From positions 1 through 64,000 of the IMG/VR virus record IMGVR_UViG_3300032167_000083: a stretch of 64,000 nucleotides of DNA; one strand, written 5' to 3'. The DNA comes from a virus. Its lineage: Duplodnaviria; Caudoviricetes. Below the pieces are notes generated by a model. It saw only the letters and a list, made by a program, of their open reading frames with translations, was not told where the DNA came from and searched no databases. Below are positions 16,410 through 47,233 of this stretch, one piece after another (the stretch's first letter is position 1; each line of letters opens with the position of its first letter). The position numbers and the translations under genes were made by a program.

Positions 16410-16593
16410 TTGACAATTGTAAAAAATTATGTTATAATATTGATAATGAGTGAGTTTGTGAGCCTCACTCATCATAATATTATTTATGAATTATCTGCAA
16501 GCAGGAGCAGAAAACTCACTACGATTTTCGCTGATAATAATCTTTTTAGATGTATCAGCTTTGAATGACTTCTGAATGGAGTCATTCTTTTTT
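16410..16593 (+). ncRNA. antisense sRNA candidate 1 with own promoter and terminator
   Basis: TTGACA(16410)-N17-TATAAT, 5' hairpin, AATTATCTGCAAGCAGGA core, terminator GAATGACTTC/GGAGTCATTC+T-run. Confidence 0.65.
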
Positions 16594-16610
16594 ATTATCA
16601 AATCACCCAT
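16491..16610 (-). CDS. 39-aa peptide ending PACR
   Basis: RBS AAGGATGTGA + ATG; MGDLIIKKNDSIQKSFKADTSKKIIISENRSEFSAPACR. Confidence 0.6.
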   Translation of the reverse strand: MGDLIIKKNDSIQKSFKADTSKKIIISENRSEFSAPACR

Positions 16611-16692
16611 AATATCACATCCTTTTAATTAAAATCTCAAAATAAAATGCTCACAATCATTCTTTAAAATACAATCATAAACATCACTCCTT

Positions 16693-19600
16693 TTAATCTA
16701 ATTCATTTAATAAACTTAATGGATGTTGCCAATCTACTGATTCAAATAAATATTCAGGATTACACCTTGTTCCATAACATAAATATTCAAAATCTCTTCT
16801 TGTATAACAAGAGTCTACATCGATTTGTTTTTTTTGAGTATCATCTGAATAGCAATATTCAGGAATATAACAAATATATTTATCAGACATATTCTTATAT
16901 TGTCCCAACATCCAAGCTTCATACGATTTATAACCCCAACCTTGACCAATATTTTCAAAACCCATTTCATCTTGAATTTGTCTAAAAGTCATTCCTTTAT
17001 CAATCATATCTTGAACATCTTGTTTTGTGAATAATTTTAACATAATATTTCCTCCTATCTTAATATTCTTTTAAGTTCTTTTACGACTACATGTAAATTT
17101 TCAGGGAAACCATCTTCCCAACCTATATCAAGCATACCATTCCAATTGTTATGATTATTTTTCATTTCATCAAATGGGTCAAACCCAAGAAAATCAGCAT
17201 TATATTTATCACAAAATTGTCTTAATTCTTCTAATCTCTTATCATATTTATTTGAAGTATATGGAATATTTAATTCATATAAATCAGCTAAATTTTGATT
17301 AATATTATTTTTATCTACAATCTTTTGACATTCTTCACAAACAAAATTGTTATTCTCATAATCCAACCAATGACCTTGACATATTGGACATTGAGCACTT
17401 GTACTAACTTTTAACATAATTAATTCCTCCTTTAAAATACGTTTATATTATGAATTTTTCCACAACGAGAACAAACATATAAACCATTCCAATTGTTTTC
17501 TTTAGTTGGTTCTATTTGAATTCCAAACTCATCACATGGAAAGAATCCATCTGTATAAGTTTTATTTCCACATTCACATGATAGTTCTTCTATAAAATCT
17601 TTAATATCAGATGGACTAACTGGTATGTTATGATATAAGCAATCCTCATACCATTTATCTCTTAAAGTATTTTGAATATTATTTTTCATAGTTTATTACC
17701 TCTATTCTATTGTCAAATCTATAAACGAATCATCACGTACTGGACATACAATCTCATCATTATATTCAGAAGTACCAAGTTTTCTATGACTTACTTCCTC
17801 AGGAGTATGTGTATTCATCCAATCCCACACCTGTTCTTCATTTTCTGCTTCAACAAATAATTCAACAGTATGTGTCATTTTGATTTTATATTTACTCATA
17901 ATCCTAATACATCCTTTCCTCTTATTACTTTTTCATATGATGCAATTTCCGCAAGAGTTTTAACACCTGTTAAGGCATGATAATAGAATGTATCATATGT
18001 CATTTGTATATATGCATCAGGAGAATGTTCAGGATAATGAACATACATCAAACAATTAAAATCGATACAATCTCTTTTTTTACCATCTATTTTATGTCTA
18101 CTTACTTTTTGATCAATCATTTTCATTCACCAACTTTCTTAATTCATTTATAGTTATTTGTTCTTTTACCATTGTTGTATGTTTATCATCCCATACATCA
18201 ATATCAATACATACTTGATAATAATTATTTGCAAAATTATGTTTTATTGTTGCTCTAATTGTTTTATAGTTACAATCAAAAAGACCATTATACATATCAT
18301 AATTATAACCTTTTAAATAAATACATAAATTTTCAAAAGTGTCATGAAATTTACTTACTTTATAAACAAGTTCATCATAATCTTTAATAGCTTGTTTATA
18401 TATTTTTTGTTCAATAGAAGAAGGACCTAAATCATACACATCGGTTGGATTTATTTCATCTTCATCTAATGCATTTGATATTGTCATTGCTGTATCGTAT
18501 GTGATTTCTAAATTAAATAAATTCATTAAAATAATCCATCTATCTAAATCAGCAGGATGATAATTCTTCAAAACTGCTTCATCAATTTGATTTTGATATT
18601 TTTCAGCATCAACATAATGCATAATTTGTTCATTTGTTGGATTTGGATCACCATTCTTTTTAATGTAATCAATTATTGTCTGTATTGATAGTTTTGTCAT
18701 CTTTCATTTCTCCTTTTAGTTATACGAAATATTTTCATCTTTAAACACTATTGTAATTTCTGTTGCTTCATATGGAACAGCACAGATATCACAATACTCT
18801 TGCCAAATATCTACTCTATAATCTTCTGCATAGAGAGTTATACAATTCATTTTTCTTCATCTCCTTTAAATAGATTATTATTTTGAATATCTTTTATAAT
18901 CTCTTTTAAAGCTCCAACAGAACACTTGTAACTATAATAGTCTCTATGATGTTTCCATTCTTCTTCAACTTCTTCTAATCTTTTCAACTTTTCAACTAAA
19001 TGAGAAAGAGTATAAAATTTATTTAAATAAGCTTTTTTGTATATTTGATAAAATTCATCATAAGTTGTTAATGGTTTATAAGTTGTGAATGATTCATTAG
19101 AAACATCTATATTTTTGTTATATAAACTCATAGTTAATACACATCCTCTCCAATATAGAAACCAGATTCACCATATTCTTTAATTAATGCTCTAAACAAG
19201 ATACAAGCATCTTTAAAGATTTCTTCATTCTCTGCACACATCATTAATTCGTCATCATCTGCTTGATCAGGAATTAAATAAATCCAATCATCACAACATG
19301 GAATTTCGTCATTCATTGATTTAATAATGAGATTCATTGCCTTCATGATTTCGAATTTTTCCATTAGTGTTTTGTTTTTATTTGTTTTCATTATGAATTT
19401 TCCTTTCTTAATTAAAGTATATAGAGAAGTTAAATGCTTCACCCATTTCATAATATGCATTATATTTTTCTAAGACTGCTAATAATTTTGAAATGTCTCC
19501 ATGATAATTTATCCATTCATAGAAGTCACTATCAAATACAACTGTTACTGTTTTTTCATTAGCATATTCAGTCCAGTTCTTGGGTGAATCAATGTCTTTA

Positions 19601-26156: not shown

Positions 26157-26350
26157 TTGACATTTTCTTTAAAGTGTGTTATAATAAAATTAAGATAAAG
26201 AGAGGATGTTGAGTCCTCTCGATATCTGTCAGAATTAATTATCTGCAAGCAGGAATAACTAATTCTTTTTTATGCTCGTTGTGAGTCACCGATCCTGACT
26301 CAACAACTAATTTCCAGATGGTTTCGTTTTGGAAGCCATCTTTCTTTTTT
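26157..26350 (+). ncRNA. antisense sRNA candidate 2 with own promoter and terminator
   Basis: TTGACA(26157)-N17-TATAAT, 5' hairpin GAGAGGA/TCCTCTC, AATTATCTGCAAGCAGGA core, terminator AGATGGTTTC/GAAGCCATCT+T-run. Confidence 0.65.
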
Positions 26351-26361
26351 AGATTAACCAT
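26239..26361 (-). CDS. 40-aa peptide ending PACR
   Basis: RBS AAAGGAAGTGA + ATG; MVNLKKKDGFQNETIWKLVVESGSVTHNEHKKELVIPACR. Confidence 0.6.
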   Translation of the reverse strand: MVNLKKKDGFQNETIWKLVVESGSVTHNEHKKELVIPACR

Positions 26362-26788
26362 AATATCACTTCCTTTCATGTAAATTATGCTTAACGTTAT
26401 TCGTCACCCAACAAAATACAATTAAATCATTTCAATATTTGATGAAAATCCAAGTCTTGCATCATTACAAACCTCATTAATTATATCTTTTCCGATATTT
26501 TCCATGGTATCTTTCCCATACAAATTACAAAGATTTTTCCAAATCTCATAATTCAACATGCCTTTTGATAAATAATAGTTAATGCTATGTACTATCATTT
26601 CCTCTTTAATCATCACTTCTGTTTTCATTTTTTTCTCCTTTCGATTTCTTAATTGTTTCTTCTGCTTCTGAATATGTGTCCTCAGAACCAATGAATTCAC
26701 CATTAAAATAAATTTCATAATGTCCTCTATTGTTGATAATTTCATAGTTATCCATAATATCACCTCTTTTTCATTATATTTATATAAA

Positions 26789-43023: not shown

Positions 43024-45038
43024 ATGCCCAATAGATTATTTTATACAGCTAAGTTAAAGAGTAGTTTTATTATTGAGAATCACTGTGATATACATAAAAA
43101 TTTCTATGAACTACTTATGGCAAATAATATAATTTCATTAGCTGATTCTCAAATGTTGAGAACTATTCGACAATTAACAAATCATGAAATTGATTTGGAA
43201 AAATTGGAAGATTGGTATCGGGAACGAGATATTATTAAAAGACGAAAAAATTCTAAAGAAAACAAAGAACGAATAAGACAATTACAAAATAATATTTATA
43301 ACATGATGTTTATACCCGAATATATCACTGTGGTGATAGAAAAAGAAAAAGATTATGATTTATTCTTTAAAAGAGGATTTAAATTTAATGGTGATAAATA
43401 TACGAGATTGTCTTGCTCTGCTTCTCAGGCAAGAGTAAATACTGTTGTTTTTATAAAAGATGAACTTAAACAACAAATGCAGGATATTCTTAATAATGGA
43501 CGAAAGATGGATAAGCCGATGGCTCCAAGTAAATTTAATGCTTATTTTGGGTTGTATTCATCTGCTACAAAACAAGTAACATATCCAAGATTTTGTATTA
43601 TTCCAGATTATTGTGAGATGGATAGAGTTAAGGTTGATTTTGTAACTACTACAGATGATTTCTCTGATGATATTCTTGATGAAAGAACTATTGATGTGGA
43701 GTTTAATCGTTTTGATGGAAATGGATTAATTAGTCCTCAAATGGCTGAACAATGGAGTATAGATATTGGTATTTATAATCCTAATGCAGAAAATGAAGAT
43801 GATAAAGGATATATTGCTTGTCAATTTTGTATTAGACAAAGTTTTACAAAAGGCATGTTATGTACTTTTGATTTTCTTAAATTTTGTAAGGAAAAGAATA
43901 ATGAAAATTATATTATTAAAGATGTTTATGGACATAATGTTGATTTAAGAGAGATTGATGTTATTCTTACTGAAGGACAAGTTAAAATGTTCGATCATTT
44001 TGGATATGAAAAAGATGGTGAATGGATTCCATCTCAAGAAGTCTTTGAAAATAATATTAAGAAAAATAATTTATTTTGGGGTGTGACTCGTTTTACACCT
44101 GAACAAGATGATAGAGTTCTTATTACCAATTATCAATTTTTACAAACCTTAAAAATGACAGATGAAGATATAGAAGAATTATGTCAAGATACTGTTAATT
44201 ATTTTAAGGGTGTTTGTTCTGGAGATTATAATTATGCGTTATTGTTTATGCTTGGAGATAGTATGAATGAGAGAAAGATGCAGAATTATATGAAATCCAG
44301 TGATAATTATTGGTTAAAAAGTTTAATATGCAATCCTAATTTATTCAATGATAAATATACAAAGCAAAAGATTAAAGATTGTATTGAAAGAAGAATAGAA
44401 CAGGCTTGTATAGGAAAAATTTTGGTTGAAGGAAATTTTCAGGTTCTTATTCCAGACAGTTATGCTTTTATGGAGTGGTGTTGTTATAGAGATCCAATGA
44501 AAGTAAAAGGTTTATTAAAAGCAGGACAATGCTATAGTAAATTTTGGAAAGACAAAGATAAACATAAAATTTTATCACAAAGGTCTCCATTAACTCATTT
44601 TAGTGAATGTCATTTAATGGATGTAGTTTGGAATGATGATATTGATGAATGGTTTAAATATAGTTATACTGGATTTTATACAAATATACATGATGAAAGT
44701 GTTATGCTTTGGTCTGGTGCAGATTTTGACTATGATATTTGTGCGAGTACATCTAATCCAGTAATGATTAGATGTGTTTATAAAAACCAGAAACCAGTAA
44801 CATATGATGTTCCTAAACCAAAGAAAATGTTATTTACAGAAACAGATTTATATAATTTTGATAAAAAAAGTTTTGGTTCTTTAATAGGTCCTCTTACGAA
44901 TCATGGAACAAGTATTATATCTTTAATTTCATATTATAGAGATAGATATAATAAATATCATGATGAACTTGATTTAAGAAAGTTAAGATTATTAGAAGAT
45001 AGATTAAAGATGGTATGTGCAGGTCAGTCAAGACAGAT
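43024..45038 (+). CDS. YonO-like single-subunit RNA polymerase, exon 1
   Basis: SASQAR, FDGNGLIS, FCIR..FTKG, NYQFLQ, RSP and GADFDYD motifs; synteny with HU, terminase and capsid as in SPbeta. Confidence 0.85.
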
Positions 45039-46359
45039 GAAATATTGTCTGCGTATATGGTAACATATATGAAAAATTAGTGGTGAACCTATAAATATAG
45101 GGTGTATAATTTACGGTAAGGAATCGTAGGAAATGACGATTAGAAATTATGCTAACAGGGGATTCTAAGGATTTTTATTAATCTATGAAAATCCTGTGGT
45201 AAGCTATTTTTTGGTGGTTGTAAAAATTAAAAAGGAGGTGAAAAAGGGTAAAATGAAAGAAGGATATAGACCTCATAATTTTATTGATAGAACGAATATG
45301 AGATTTGGAAAATTAGTATGTCAAGAATATTTAGGACAAGGAAAATGGAAATGTTTGTGTGATTGTGGAAACACACATATTGTAAAAGGTGATGATTTAC
45401 CTGTGAATAGTAAAAAAAGAGGAGTTAAGTCTTGTGGGTGTGGGCATTTAAGTAAAACTTGTCCTGATATTAATTATTTTAAAAACATTAATACTTCTGA
45501 AAAAGCATACATACTTGGATTATTAGCATCTGATGGAAATATTTATAATTATAATAATAGTTATTATGCTACGATTAGATTAAAATATACAGATGTAGAT
45601 ATCTTAGAAAAAGTAAAAAAAACTATGAATATAACTTCAAAAATCACATATCAAGAAGAAAATGTTGTTTTCCCACAAGGTAATCAAGGTATTGCTAAGA
45701 TGTGTTGTTTAAGGATTTATGGAAAAGAAATTATTAATGATTTAATTTCGTATGGTTTAGTTCCAAATAAAACATTACATTTGAAAGTTGATTATAAAAA
45801 AATACCAAAAGAATTCGTAAGAGATTATTTAAGAGGATTATGGGATGGAGATGGAACTTTTGGTTTTTATGAACGACAAAATAATTCTCATACATATGAA
45901 GTTCATTATATTGGCTCTTCTGAAATAGTTAATGATATTAAAGATATTATCTTAGAAAATTTTCCACATTACAAAATTGATACTTGGCATGCTAAAGAAT
46001 GTAATGAAAATATTTTTAGATTAGGGTTATCTCGTAGAGATGATTGTATAGAATTTTTAAATTTTTTATACAAAGATGCTAATATATATTTAGATAGAAA
46101 ATATCAGAAGTATATTGATTGTATAGATTTAGTTAAATCTATTCCTTTTAAAAAATCACCATGTAGAAATTAGAAACTTAATCGACTATCCCAAATGGAG
46201 GTGGAATTCCTCAATAGGAGTAGGGGAGAGGTGAAAATCCTTTCTGGGTGAAACCCCCTTAAATCGAAGTGCCACAATCCTAATTATTTAGGATTAAGAT
46301 ATAGTCAAAACCGACTCATATGAGTGTTAAAGTACTATGAAAATAGCGGTATGTAAATG
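45039..46359 (+). mobile_element. group I intron (IA2-like) with homing endonuclease
   Basis: Exon ends in U, intron ends in G; P3 GTGGT/GCCAC, P7 GACTAT/ATAGTC, S element AAGATATAGTC, P8 AATCCTAA/TTAGGATT; splicing restores Q-I-D-K-T-K-I-G. Confidence 0.9.
45253..46173 (+). CDS. intron-encoded LAGLIDADG homing endonuclease
   Basis: YILGLLASDG and YLRGLWDGDG motifs, YL.RKY; N-terminal RFGKL..WKCLCDCG..SCGC module. Confidence 0.88.
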   Translation: MKEGYRPHNFIDRTNMRFGKLVCQEYLGQGKWKCLCDCGNTHIVKGDDLPVNSKKRGVKSCGCGHLSKTCPDINYFKNINTSEKAYILGLLASDGNIYNYNNSYYATIRLKYTDVDILEKVKKTMNITSKITYQEENVVFPQGNQGIAKMCCLRIYGKEIINDLISYGLVPNKTLHLKVDYKKIPKEFVRDYLRGLWDGDGTFGFYERQNNSHTYEVHYIGSSEIVNDIKDIILENFPHYKIDTWHAKECNENIFRLGLSRRDDCIEFLNFLYKDANIYLDRKYQKYIDCIDLVKSIPFKKSPCRN

Positions 46360-47233
46360 AGATAAAACAAAAATTGGACAAGAAGTAAAAGCAATAGCTA
46401 AAATATGGAAAACATTTCGTCCAATAAAAGAGACTGACACAGAACAAGAAAGAGAAGAAAAAGAGTTTTATAATTCTATTCTTTCAGATAGAAAACCATA
46501 CTTTTTTAAGTATTTATATAAAGATTGTAAAACAACCTATAATACAGCTTATAAAAGTTTTGATAAAGAGTCTCGTAGGAGATATGGAATAACATTAAAA
46601 GAATTAATGAATATAGAAAATATAACAGAGGAACAAGAGAAATTAATTAATCATTTTATTTCAGAAACAAGACTTATTATGTCTGACTGTGAAATGAATA
46701 GATTATGTAAACATATAGAAAATGCTAATTTTGAAATTAAATTAAATATAAGAGATGATTCTAAATTTGATTATATGTATTTTTTTGATGAAAATATTGA
46801 ATGGAAACAAGAAACATATGAGAAAATTTTTGAATTAATGAAAATGTTTAGTTTAAGTAAAAAATCTAATAAACTTGCTAATTCTTTAAGAGAAAATCAG
46901 AAAATAGGAGTCAAATCTGATAACGAAGTAACTAATGGTAAGAAGCTTGAAATAGAAGTAATGAGAAACAGATTGCTTGAAGAAGGGACTTCAGATAGTC
47001 GTGAGTTATGTAATTATCTTTTGAAGATTTTTTATGAAGATAAGAGAAGTTGGGATAAAGGATTGTTGTGGAAATTAGTTGGAGATATTTTATATGAACG
47101 TTGTTTTAATAAAAGTAATGGAAATATAAGAGTTCCTGTTTTAGATAATGATGGAGATATTATTTTTTATAATGATAAATTTAGTGTAAGAGATGTGAAT
47201 ATAAATAAAGATGAGGAAGTGAACCCATGCTAA
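46360..47233 (+). CDS. YonO-like RNA polymerase, exon 2
   Basis: Open frame from 46361 (DKTKIG...DRKPYFFKYLY) continuous with track ORF 46607..47233; spliced product 962 aa. Confidence 0.85.

What the first reader, a model, noticed from the sequence alone, without database searches (positions are those of the whole stretch)
16410..16625. Two-copy 'PACR' cassette: ~40-aa peptide fully overlapped by a promoter-driven antisense sRNA (copy 1; copy 2 at 26157-26376)
Seen: two loci ~10 kb apart share one architecture inside minus-strand operons. The plus strand has a perfect TTGACA-N17-TATAAT promoter, a 5' hairpin, an identical 18-nt core AATTATCTGCAAGCAGGA and an intrinsic terminator, giving a ~150-nt RNA. 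The minus strand has RBS AAGGA.GTGATATTATGG and a 39/40-codon ORF whose stop falls at the same position in the core, so both peptides end PACR*. The middle has diverged but the frame is preserved. Established: this layout is that of type I toxin-antitoxin loci. Inference: the peptides are hydrophilic with no TM helix, unlike Fst/TxpA/Hok-type toxins, so this may be an undescribed soluble peptide/antisense family (addiction, host takeover or signalling through the C-terminal Cys motif). Neither ORF is in the ORF track.
Basis: partly seen in the sequence, partly recalled or inferred. Interest (0 to 1): 0.85.

Follow-up and report, generated by a model that had tools for sequence, protein, structure and literature searches.

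The report
Phage peptide gene with antisense RNA
Two spots in this gut phage each hold a tiny protein gene faced by a strongly promoted antisense RNA gene, a reusable module built like a type I toxin-antitoxin pair but encoding soluble peptides of unknown function.

Summary
Both loci carry, on the + strand, a perfect TTGACA-N17-TATAAT promoter with TGT, a 5' hairpin and an intrinsic terminator, which predicts RNAs of 149 and 159 nt. On the - strand each has a strong RBS and a 39/40-codon ORF ending PACR.

A 117-kb relative (G001) has five cassettes of the same design. Two carry the same peptide family (ends PACK, PICR). Three carry a second, unrelated peptide family. Metagenome proteins add 18 clusters for each family.

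- The 18-nt "core" is not conserved as nucleotides in G001 (TGC>TGT, AGA>AAA, GCT>ATA), so selection there acts on the peptide.
- The Cys is absent in 8 of 18 family-1 clusters, so the Cys-signalling idea fails.
- The RNA covers 68-91% of the ORF and never reaches the RBS or start codon.
- The peptides are hydrophilic, have no confident predicted fold, and match no Pfam, PHROG or NCBIfam family. The loci match no Rfam family.
- Cassettes sit in different slots in the two phages.

Best reading: a modular, convergent peptide-gene/antisense-RNA cassette in the early region of a distant SPbeta-like phage of Bacillota. It is laid out like yonT/SR6 or bsrG/SR4, with the RNA gating peptide expression. 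Toxicity is untested. There are no expression data.

The parts
16410..16438 (+). Copy 1 antisense promoter: TTGACA, 17-nt spacer ending TGT, TATAAT. An A/T-rich tract lies upstream.
16445..16593 (+). Copy 1 predicted antisense RNA, about 149 nt. The start is inferred as 7 nt after the -10. The end is at the terminator T-run.
   Evidence: fold z = -5.24
16446..16472 (+). Copy 1 5' hairpin, 9 bp and all Watson-Crick. On the - strand it forms a hairpin 20 nt after the ORF stop.
   Evidence: -11.3 kcal/mol; under 1% of random 42-nt windows
16490..16507 (.). 18-nt core, identical in both copies. On the - strand it reads ..P A C R stop plus 2 nt.
16530..16559 (+). Copy 1 middle hairpin of the RNA.
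16563..16593 (+). Copy 1 intrinsic terminator. The 10-bp stem has one U.G pair, which would be an A.C mismatch on the - strand, then T6. It lies inside codons 6-16 of the ORF.
16491..16610 (-). Copy 1 small ORF, 39 aa (MGDLIIKK...SEFSAPACR*), peptide family 1.
   Evidence: (P0008)
16620..16626 (-). Copy 1 ribosome-binding site AAAAGGA, 9 nt before the ATG.
16664..16693 (-). Conserved left border of the cassette: SD-like AAAGGAG plus the mini-ORF ATG ATT GTA TTT TAA. It can also be read as a TRTG-type extended -10.
26157..26185 (+). Copy 2 antisense promoter: TTGACA, 17-nt spacer ending TGT, TATAAT.
26192..26350 (+). Copy 2 predicted antisense RNA, about 159 nt.
   Evidence: fold z = -6.48
26200..26220 (+). 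Copy 2 5' hairpin GAGAGGA...TCCTCTC. On the - strand it is terminator-like, followed by TTTATCTT.
26237..26254 (.). 18-nt core, copy 2.
26278..26307 (+). Copy 2 middle hairpin of the RNA.
26316..26351 (+). Copy 2 intrinsic terminator: 10-bp stem with one U.G pair, then a T-run.
26239..26361 (-). Copy 2 small ORF, 40 aa (MVNLKKKDGFQNETIWKLVVESGSVTHNEHKKELVIPACR*), peptide family 1. Gene callers start it 6 codons earlier, at an ATG that is not conserved.
   Evidence: (P0002)
26370..26376 (-). Copy 2 ribosome-binding site AAAGGAA.

Best explanation
Each locus is a self-contained convergent gene pair, and one member of a family of modular cassettes in the early, minus-strand gene block of a large phage of Bacillota with a YonO-type RNA polymerase.

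The - strand encodes a translated 39/40-residue soluble peptide that is probably unstructured on its own. It has a conserved C-terminal stretch, [SN]-E-x-x-x-E-[LIF]-x-x-P-x(1-2)-[RK]-stop.

The + strand encodes a non-coding RNA of about 150 nt. It is made by the host sigma-A polymerase from a consensus promoter with an extended -10. It starts with a 5' hairpin and ends at an intrinsic terminator inside the 5' part of the peptide gene. This RNA is perfectly complementary to the last 86-91% of the ORF and to its 3' UTR, but not to the RBS or start codon.

Most likely mechanism (inferred, not shown): the abundant antisense RNA pairs with the 3' part of the peptide mRNA. The long duplex is cut by RNase III and the mRNA decays, as for yonT/SR6, txpA/RatA and bsrG/SR4. 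The peptide would then be held off while the antisense promoter fires, and be made only when that RNA falls.

The hairpin next to the promoter probably serves both strands, as a terminator for the peptide mRNA and as a protective 5' stem for the RNA. What the peptide does is unknown. A short docking peptide acting on a host protein is my guess.
For: Antisense transcription unit:
- A perfect promoter with TGT, a 5' hairpin and a hairpin-plus-T-run terminator are present in 7 of 7 cassettes (2 here, 5 in relative G001). RNA lengths are 137-159 nt.
- All 7 5' hairpins fold at -6.8 kcal/mol or better, against 7.5-8.7% of random 42-nt windows. All 7 terminators fold at -12.7 or better, against 0.4-0.5% of random windows.
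- Stem sequences differ between cassettes while the four-hairpin layout stays.
- U.G pairs in the terminator stems fit the + strand only.

Coding:
- An ORF of 39-54 codons with AAGGAG-type RBS at normal spacing occurs in 7 of 7 cassettes. Each ORF arose in only 0.4-2.9% of shuffles.
- In G001 the C-terminal codons change by a synonymous step (TGC>TGT) and conservative steps (AGA>AAA, GCT>ATA), and these break the 18-nt core.
- There are 18 family-1 and 18 family-2 protein clusters in metagenomes. E43, E47 and P51 are invariant in family 1.

Module behaviour:
- Cassettes occupy different slots in the two phages.
- The homologue of the gene upstream of copy 1 (46% identity) is followed in G001 by a family-2 cassette.
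- The homologue of the gene downstream of copy 1 has no cassette in front of it in G001.

Context:
- The RNA polymerase is 42.5% identical to the YonO homologue of Spbetavirus BUCT082.
- SPbeta itself carries 3'-overlapping type I pairs.
Against: - There are no expression data.
- The RNA leaves the RBS and start codon free, so a direct block of translation is not expected.
- No convincing sigma-A promoter for the peptide gene was found. There is only a TRTG-n-TTTAAT-like element in 5 of 7 left borders, and it is equally readable as a mini-ORF.
- Codon-position differences show position 2 lowest but no third-position excess. Pooled over 9 non-independent pairs the counts are 166/122/173, so purifying selection on most of the peptide is weak or confounded by RNA constraints.
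- Some 'conserved' residues coincide with the RNA's terminator T-run and stem: K18 and G20 in family 1, EQIK in family 2. These need not be protein-level constraints.
- DNA is in hand for only 7 cassettes from 2 genomes.
Confidence: 0.55

Rival explanations
1. True type I toxin-antitoxin (addiction or abortive) module. The peptide is a growth-arresting toxin acting in the cytoplasm, and the antisense RNA is its labile antitoxin.
For: - The layout matches: small ORF, convergent 3'-overlapping RNA, and a far stronger promoter on the RNA side.
- The module has several diverged copies per genome and moves between slots, as type I families do.
- Cytoplasmic type I toxins exist: SymE and RalR (passage of PMC6562991).
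- The phage is a distant SPbeta relative.
Against: - No TM helix. GRAVY is -0.18 to -1.00 in all 18 family-1 sequences scored (4 cassette ORFs and P0001-P0014).
- No match to any toxin family in Pfam or NCBIfam, or to any antitoxin RNA in Rfam.
- No integrase or repressor was seen in the 66%-complete record, which is rich in homing endonucleases. This weakens the case for addiction.
- The peptides have no predicted fold. SymE and RalR are folded enzymes.
Confidence: 0.2
2. The + strand unit is chiefly a transcription-boundary and recombination element. It would be a composite terminator/promoter like the PeSLs of T4-type phages, but facing backwards. It would insulate or attenuate the minus-strand operons and promote cassette shuffling. 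The peptide gene would be an ordinary early gene, and base-pairing would be incidental.
For: - The hairpin beside the promoter is terminator-like on the - strand, with a T-rich tail overlapping the -10.
- The borders are conserved (left TIR-like block, right hairpin plus promoter) while the ORF bodies are swapped. One syntenic slot holds family 1 in one phage and family 2 in the other.
- PeSLs are described as composite terminator/promoter motifs tied to indels (passages of PMC4122927).
- G001 also has a perfect + strand promoter facing the end of a 103-codon open minus-strand frame.
Against: - A boundary element needs no dedicated terminator 140-160 nt downstream, yet 7 of 7 have one.
- It also needs no conserved four-hairpin RNA.
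- The orientation is opposite to the genes, so it cannot drive the next gene.
Confidence: 0.13
3. The ORF is a cis-acting leader whose nascent C-terminal residues stall the ribosome at the stop codon. This would control the hairpin just downstream and so control read-through into the next gene.
For: - Conservation is concentrated in the last 12 or so residues, with a variable N-terminal part and no predicted fold.
- In G001 cassettes a and b the hairpin starts 7-9 nt after the stop, within reach of a terminating ribosome.
Against: - In the two window copies the hairpin starts about 20 nt after the stop.
- The downstream genes are unrelated between cassettes.
- Family 2 is conserved along its whole length, not only at the end.
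- The reading does not explain the antisense promoter or terminator.
Confidence: 0.07
4. Only the RNA is functional and the ORF is a by-product of RNA conservation. A variant is that the RNA is a guide or repeat mimic for an RNA-guided nuclease. The core loosely recalls a Cas12a repeat handle (recalled, not tested against a repeat), and the phage encodes a TnpB.
For: - The RNAs are strongly structured.
- Parts of the peptide conservation map onto RNA stems and the T-run.
- A gene with OrfB_IS605 and Cas12f-like TNB domains lies elsewhere in the record.
Against: - ORF and RBS are kept in 7 of 7 cassettes and in 36 protein clusters.
- The core is not conserved as nucleotides in G001, while the residues are.
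- There is no repeat array. The 18-mer occurs only twice.
- No common RNA scaffold sequence is shared by the seven RNAs.
Confidence: 0.05

Closest known systems
yonT/SR6 and bsrG/SR4 (type I toxin-antitoxin pairs of Bacillus prophage SPbeta); also txpA/RatA
   Same: - A small ORF (under 60 aa) on a possibly polycistronic mRNA.
- A convergent antisense RNA of 100-200 nt that overlaps the 3' part of the ORF and not the RBS.
- RNase III-dependent decay as the known mode of control (PMC5848175, abstract start; PMC6562991, passages).
- The carrier is an SPbeta-type phage lineage by its RNA polymerase.
   Different: - The peptides here are hydrophilic or acidic, with no TM segment and no sequence similarity to those toxins.
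- The RNAs match no Rfam family.
- Toxicity is unknown.
- The antisense terminator lies inside the ORF.
- Two unrelated peptide families share one cassette frame.
PeSL composite terminator/promoter cassettes of T4-type phages
   Same: A short conserved stem-loop-plus-early-promoter motif flanks small ORFs of unknown function in a plastic early region. It is associated with insertion, deletion and replacement of those ORFs (PMC2839356, listing and abstract start; PMC4122927, passages; here).
   Different: Here the promoter points against the genes and has its own terminator, so it makes a discrete antisense RNA. The host is Gram-positive. That PeSL promoters point with the genes is recalled, not read.
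Phage cis-antisense RNAs such as lambda OOP (against cII) or P22 sar (recalled, no call)
   Same: A short, terminator-ended RNA from a constitutive promoter, complementary to the 3' part or start of a phage regulatory gene, with RNase III involvement.
   Different: Those are single, gene-specific regulators of known proteins. They are not a multi-copy exchangeable cassette with its own peptide families.

Membership tests
Type I toxin-antitoxin system (general) | Small protein whose expression arrests growth or kills the cell | not testable with these tools
   No functional data exist. Two small ORFs are present in the window and five in G001.
Type I toxin-antitoxin system (general) | Antisense RNA gene overlapping the toxin mRNA | tested here: met
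   This holds at sequence level only. Promoter, terminator and 103-119 nt of perfect complementarity to the ORF are present in 7 of 7 cassettes. No transcript data exist.
Type I toxin-antitoxin system (classical membrane toxins: Hok, Fst, TxpA, BsrG, YonT, Ibs, Ldr ...) | Hydrophobic peptide with an alpha-helical TM domain (PMC6562991) | tested here: not met
   The best 15-residue hydropathy window is 0.71 or lower and GRAVY is negative in all 18 family-1 sequences scored. Family 2 was not scored; its sequences are rich in acidic and polar residues.
Known type I toxin / antitoxin families by homology | Match to a Pfam or NCBIfam toxin model, or to an Rfam antitoxin RNA model | tested here: not met
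   Pfam, PHROGs and NCBIfam give no hit at E <= 0.01-1. Rfam gives 0 matches at gathering score in 64 kb. At E <= 5 the best matches are 20-30 bits below threshold; SIB_RNA scores 14 bits against 56.
Bacillus-type 3'-overlapping type I pairs (txpA/RatA, bsrG/SR4, yonT/SR6) | Convergent transcription with the overlap at the 3' ends and the RBS left free | tested here: met
   The RNA covers 68-91% of the ORF from its 3' end and stops 8-48 nt before the ATG in 7 of 7 cassettes.
Bacillus-type 3'-overlapping type I pairs | Toxin gene has its own promoter | tested here: inconclusive
   No - strand site scoring 10/12 or better lies next to either copy. A TRTG-n-TTTAAT-like element occurs in 5 of 7 left borders, but it can also be read as SD plus Met-Ile-stop.
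PeSL-type mobile regulatory cassette | Conserved composite stem-loop/promoter motif flanking variable ORFs, linked to indels between related phages | tested here: met
   The borders are conserved and the bodies swapped. Slot occupancy differs between G000 and G001.
PeSL-type mobile regulatory cassette | Promoter drives the adjacent downstream ORF (recalled) | tested here: not met
   The promoter faces the ORF's 3' end, and the unit terminates after 137-159 nt with no conserved + strand ORF.
CRISPR repeat mimic / guide RNA (Racr, Cas12a-type handle, TnpB omega-RNA) | Conserved repeat or scaffold sequence shared by copies and by a host or phage array | tested here: not met
   The 18-mer occurs twice only, with no array. 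The core nucleotides are not kept in G001. The seven RNAs share no common scaffold.

The most novel reading that the evidence does not exclude
A previously undescribed class of phage cassettes. One exchangeable frame (left translation-start block, right bidirectional hairpin plus consensus antisense promoter) carries at least two unrelated families of soluble, intrinsically disordered 40-55-residue peptides. Each peptide is gated by its own cis-antisense RNA. The peptides would be short docking inhibitors of host proteins, for takeover or anti-defence, or cytoplasmic toxins. Their release would be timed by the fall of host sigma-A transcription. In effect this is a soluble-effector branch of type I toxin-antitoxin logic that shuffles like PeSL cassettes.
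Probability: 0.3. Interest if true: 0.75.

Novelty: new variant of a known kind. Interest (0 to 1): 0.58.

Why it matters
Type I toxin-antitoxin pairs and phage antisense RNAs are both known. Almost all known type I peptides are membrane poisons, and each pair is a fixed locus.

Here the same convergent design is used as an exchangeable cassette for two unrelated families of soluble peptides. There are seven copies in two uncultured ruminant or animal gut phages and about 36 protein clusters in metagenomes. None matched any Pfam, PHROGs, NCBIfam or Rfam family, and only 2 of the 36 clusters carry a source name, 'hypothetical protein'.

If the RNA gates the peptide, this gives a compact natural timer for small effectors. 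It also gives a handle for finding what such peptides target in Bacillota.

The case also shows how overlapping RNA and protein constraints shape a 120-nt gene. The terminator T-run and stem dictate Lys/Asn and Gly codons.

Tried and rejected
**Known RNA and tRNA genes.** Rfam at gathering score over the whole window gave 0 matches. Rfam at E <= 5 on both loci gave only sub-threshold noise. No tRNA or tmRNA was found.

**CRISPR-like or guide reading.** I dropped it. The core is not conserved as nucleotides and there is no array.

**Collection scans for the cassette.**
- The exact 18-mer in IMG/VR gave 2 hits, both unrelated coding DNA.
- Promoter plus CTGCAAGCAG gave 9 hits, all chance.
- Promoter plus P-x-C-[KR]-stop gave 3 hits in IMG/VR: 2 are G001 and 1 is chance. 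The same pattern gave 2 chance hits in species-representative genomes.
- -10 plus the RBS block in JGI metagenomes gave 11 hits, all chance. This shows that the RBS block is a common strong Firmicute start region.

**Relatives by protein.**
- The 208-aa neighbour found none.
- The 146-aa neighbour and the RNA polymerase each found G001 only.
- Peptide profile A5 in IMG/VR found G001 only.
- GenBank phages have no tblastn match to either peptide family at E <= 1 and no DNA match to window 14-29 kb.

**Structure.**
- AlphaFold2 gave mean pLDDT 53.5 for family 1 and 60.5 for family 2, with no secondary structure. No fold search was run because the models are too poor.
- The ESM Atlas gave no usable hit.

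**Other checks.**
- hhalign of family 1 against family 2 gave probability 3%.
- A profile search of 1.84 billion representatives gave 12 hits at E <= 0.001. Nine are short family members. Three are long proteins: one, when inspected, is a tandem-repeat protein matching only a short stretch, and P0037 and P0039 were not inspected.
- No extra hidden copies turned up by tblastn in either phage.
- A + strand ORF in the RNA is not conserved between copies.

**Expression.** No RNA holder was listed.

**Literature.** Six full-text searches surfaced no description of this cassette. They were not exhaustive. No supplements were consulted.

Full report
**What the window is.** The window is bases 34935-98934 of a 102-kb IMG/VR virus record (G000), estimated 66% complete. 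Its GC content is 24-32%. DNA runs that hold it are animal gut and faeces metagenomes.

It encodes a portal, a terminase-like ATPase, many HNH endonucleases, a Thg1-like enzyme and a double-psi-barrel RNA polymerase. The closest cultured relative of that polymerase is the YonO homologue of Bacillus phage BUCT082, an Spbetavirus, at 42.5% identity. Next come Clostridium and Enterocloster phages. The host is therefore most likely a low-GC member of Bacillota. Genes from about window 5,000 to 41,000 run on the minus strand.

**The observation.** Both loci are as described.
- Each has TTGACA, a 17-nt spacer ending TGT, and TATAAT. Only three 12/12 promoters exist in 19 kb, and two are these.
- In the whole record there are 11 perfect promoters, 9 of them with TGn. 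These two are the only ones that oppose the minus-strand genes.
- Each promoter is followed by a hairpin at about +2 to +28, the shared 18-mer, a middle hairpin and a terminator.
- The predicted RNAs are 149 and 159 nt and fold far better than shuffles (z = -5.2 and -6.5).
- The terminator stems each contain a U.G pair, which would be an A.C mismatch on the other strand. The T-run follows only on the + strand, so this terminator belongs to the + strand.
- On the minus strand an AAAGGA RBS stands 9 nt before an ATG, and the frames stay open for 39 and 40 codons. That happened in 2.4% and 2.9% of shuffles.
- The RNA covers 86% and 91% of the ORF but stops 14 and 8 nt before the ATG. 'Fully overlapped' is therefore slightly wrong.

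**Relatives.** DNA-pattern scans of IMG/VR, JGI metagenomes and species-representative genomes found no other phage lineage with the cassette.

A protein neighbour led to one related record, G001 (117 kb, 67% complete). Its shared early proteins are 30-82% identical and its RNA polymerase 75%. G001 has two cassettes with the same peptide family: a is 54 aa ending REISFPACK, and b is 52 aa ending EELILPICR.

It also has three cassettes (c, d, e) built in the same way around a second peptide family of 41-44 aa, M..EQIKETT..EVV..SNILFDxNLGFNPxLDF[IV]P..EFK.

All seven cassettes share these features:
- a perfect promoter with TGT or TGA and an A/T tract upstream;
- a 5' hairpin;
- the ORF stop codon 33-53 nt after the -10;
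- an RNA of 137-159 nt;
- a terminator inside the 5' part of the ORF;
- an AAGGAG-type RBS.

No further copies are hidden in either genome.

**Is the ORF real?**
The residues P-x-C-[RK]-stop are kept.
- A profile of the four peptides found 14 clusters among 5.8 billion proteins (E from 1e-16 to 1e-4). A full HMMER pass over 1.84 billion representatives added four more. Family 2 found 18 clusters.
- In family 1, E43, E47 and P51 are invariant across 12 aligned sequences, while their neighbours vary conservatively.
- I therefore take the ORFs as coding.

Three cautions apply:
- Pairwise codon comparisons show fewest changes at position 2 but no third-position excess.
- The near-invariant K18 and G20 of family 1, and EQIK of family 2, lie exactly on the antisense terminator's T-run and stem, so they may be RNA-driven.
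- The Cys is missing in 8 of 18 family-1 clusters (PAYR, IPIR, PDYR, one truncated). Exact PACR is found only in the window's own two, and one member ends in Met.

The Cys-motif idea is therefore not supported. What is conserved is [SN]E-x3-E[LIF]-x-x-P followed by a basic end (17 of 18).

**What the peptides are.**
- The family-1 sequences scored are all hydrophilic, and family 2 is rich in acidic and polar residues.
- They have no hit in Pfam, PHROGs or NCBIfam and no ESM Atlas neighbour.
- AlphaFold2 gives no fold (pLDDT 53.5 and 60.5).
- The two families are not detectably related (hhalign probability 3%). The one shared stretch, G[MF]NP...F[IV]P, is at DNA level an inverted repeat.
- A short, disordered peptide with a conserved linear motif suggests docking onto a partner. 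That is inference.

**Modularity.**
- The early regions of the two phages are heavily rearranged.
- The homologue of the gene downstream of copy 1 has no cassette in front of it in G001.
- The homologue of the gene upstream of copy 1 (46% identity) is followed in G001 by a family-2 cassette, where G000 has a family-1 cassette.
- Copy 2 sits before the 208-aa gene, whereas cassette b sits after that gene's homologue.
- The borders are conserved across families. On the right is the hairpin plus promoter.
- On the left is a near-copy of the ORF's own start region, followed by ATG ATT TAA/TGA, in 5 of 7 cassettes.
- This is the behaviour described for PeSL terminator/promoter cassettes of T4-type phages, except that here the promoter faces backwards and makes a discrete RNA.

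**Mechanism.**
- Shown by sequence: two convergent units with 103-119 nt of perfect complementarity within the ORF, an RBS left free, and a far stronger promoter on the RNA side.
- Established for the closest analogues: in B. subtilis, RatA, SR4, SR5 and SR6 pair with the 3' ends of their target mRNAs, and RNase III cleavage starts decay. The SPbeta toxin yonT is transcribed on a polycistronic mRNA.
- Inferred: the RNA here holds the peptide mRNA down in the same way. The border hairpin serves both strands.
- Speculative: the peptide appears when host sigma-A transcription of the RNA drops.

**Family membership.** I do not file this as a type I toxin-antitoxin system. The TM-helix feature and homology to known families were tested and not met, and toxicity cannot be tested here.

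**Verdict.** This is a real, conserved and unannotated module. It is a new variant of the cis-antisense / type I-like kind. Its interest lies in the soluble peptides and the exchangeable cassette frame. There are no expression data.

Noticed in passing
window 43024-45063, 45253-46173, 46310-47203 (+): The YonO-type RNA polymerase gene is split. Residues 1-646 of the BUCT082 homologue align to 43024-45039 and residues 623-924 to 46310-47203. A LAGLIDADG homing-endonuclease ORF lies in between. This could be an intron, an intein-less split or a free-standing endonuclease insertion.
   Followed up: partly
G000:C1:15312-16463 (+), outside the window (L056): The phage encodes a 383-aa TnpB-like protein with OrfB_IS605 and Cas12f1-like TNB domains (PHROG 'transposase'). 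A perfect sigma-A promoter lies about 500 nt downstream. I found no link to the cassettes.
   Followed up: partly
window 16664-16693 (-); G001:14494, 24107, 35114, 36617 (-): In 5 of 7 cassettes a strong SD plus a two- to four-codon mini-ORF (Met-Ile-stop in four) lies 30-70 nt upstream of the peptide gene. In copy 2 the same ATGATTTAA forms the end of the upstream ORF. It recalls the lambda bar minigenes (AUG AUA stop; recalled, and the minigene literature was seen only as a listing). It can also be read as a TRTG-n-TTTAAT extended -10.
   Followed up: partly
G001:10709 and G001:39519 (+); G000:C1:4578 and 32728 (+): These are further perfect promoters with no ORF close behind. G001:10709 opens an AT-rich non-coding stretch with tandem 'aaactttaaaa' repeats. 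G001:39519 faces the 3' end of a 103-codon open minus-strand frame. They may be further phage small RNAs.
   Followed up: no
window 26606-26755 (-) versus 26422-26763 (-): A 49-aa ORF with the same strong start block has a 54%-identical homologue in G001. It overlaps, in another frame, a 113-codon GTG-started ORF. The short one is the better-supported gene.
   Followed up: partly
P0004 versus G001 cassettes a and b: Metagenome peptide P0004 joins the N-terminal half of the cassette-b type to the C-terminal half of the cassette-a type. This suggests recombination inside the peptide genes.
   Followed up: no
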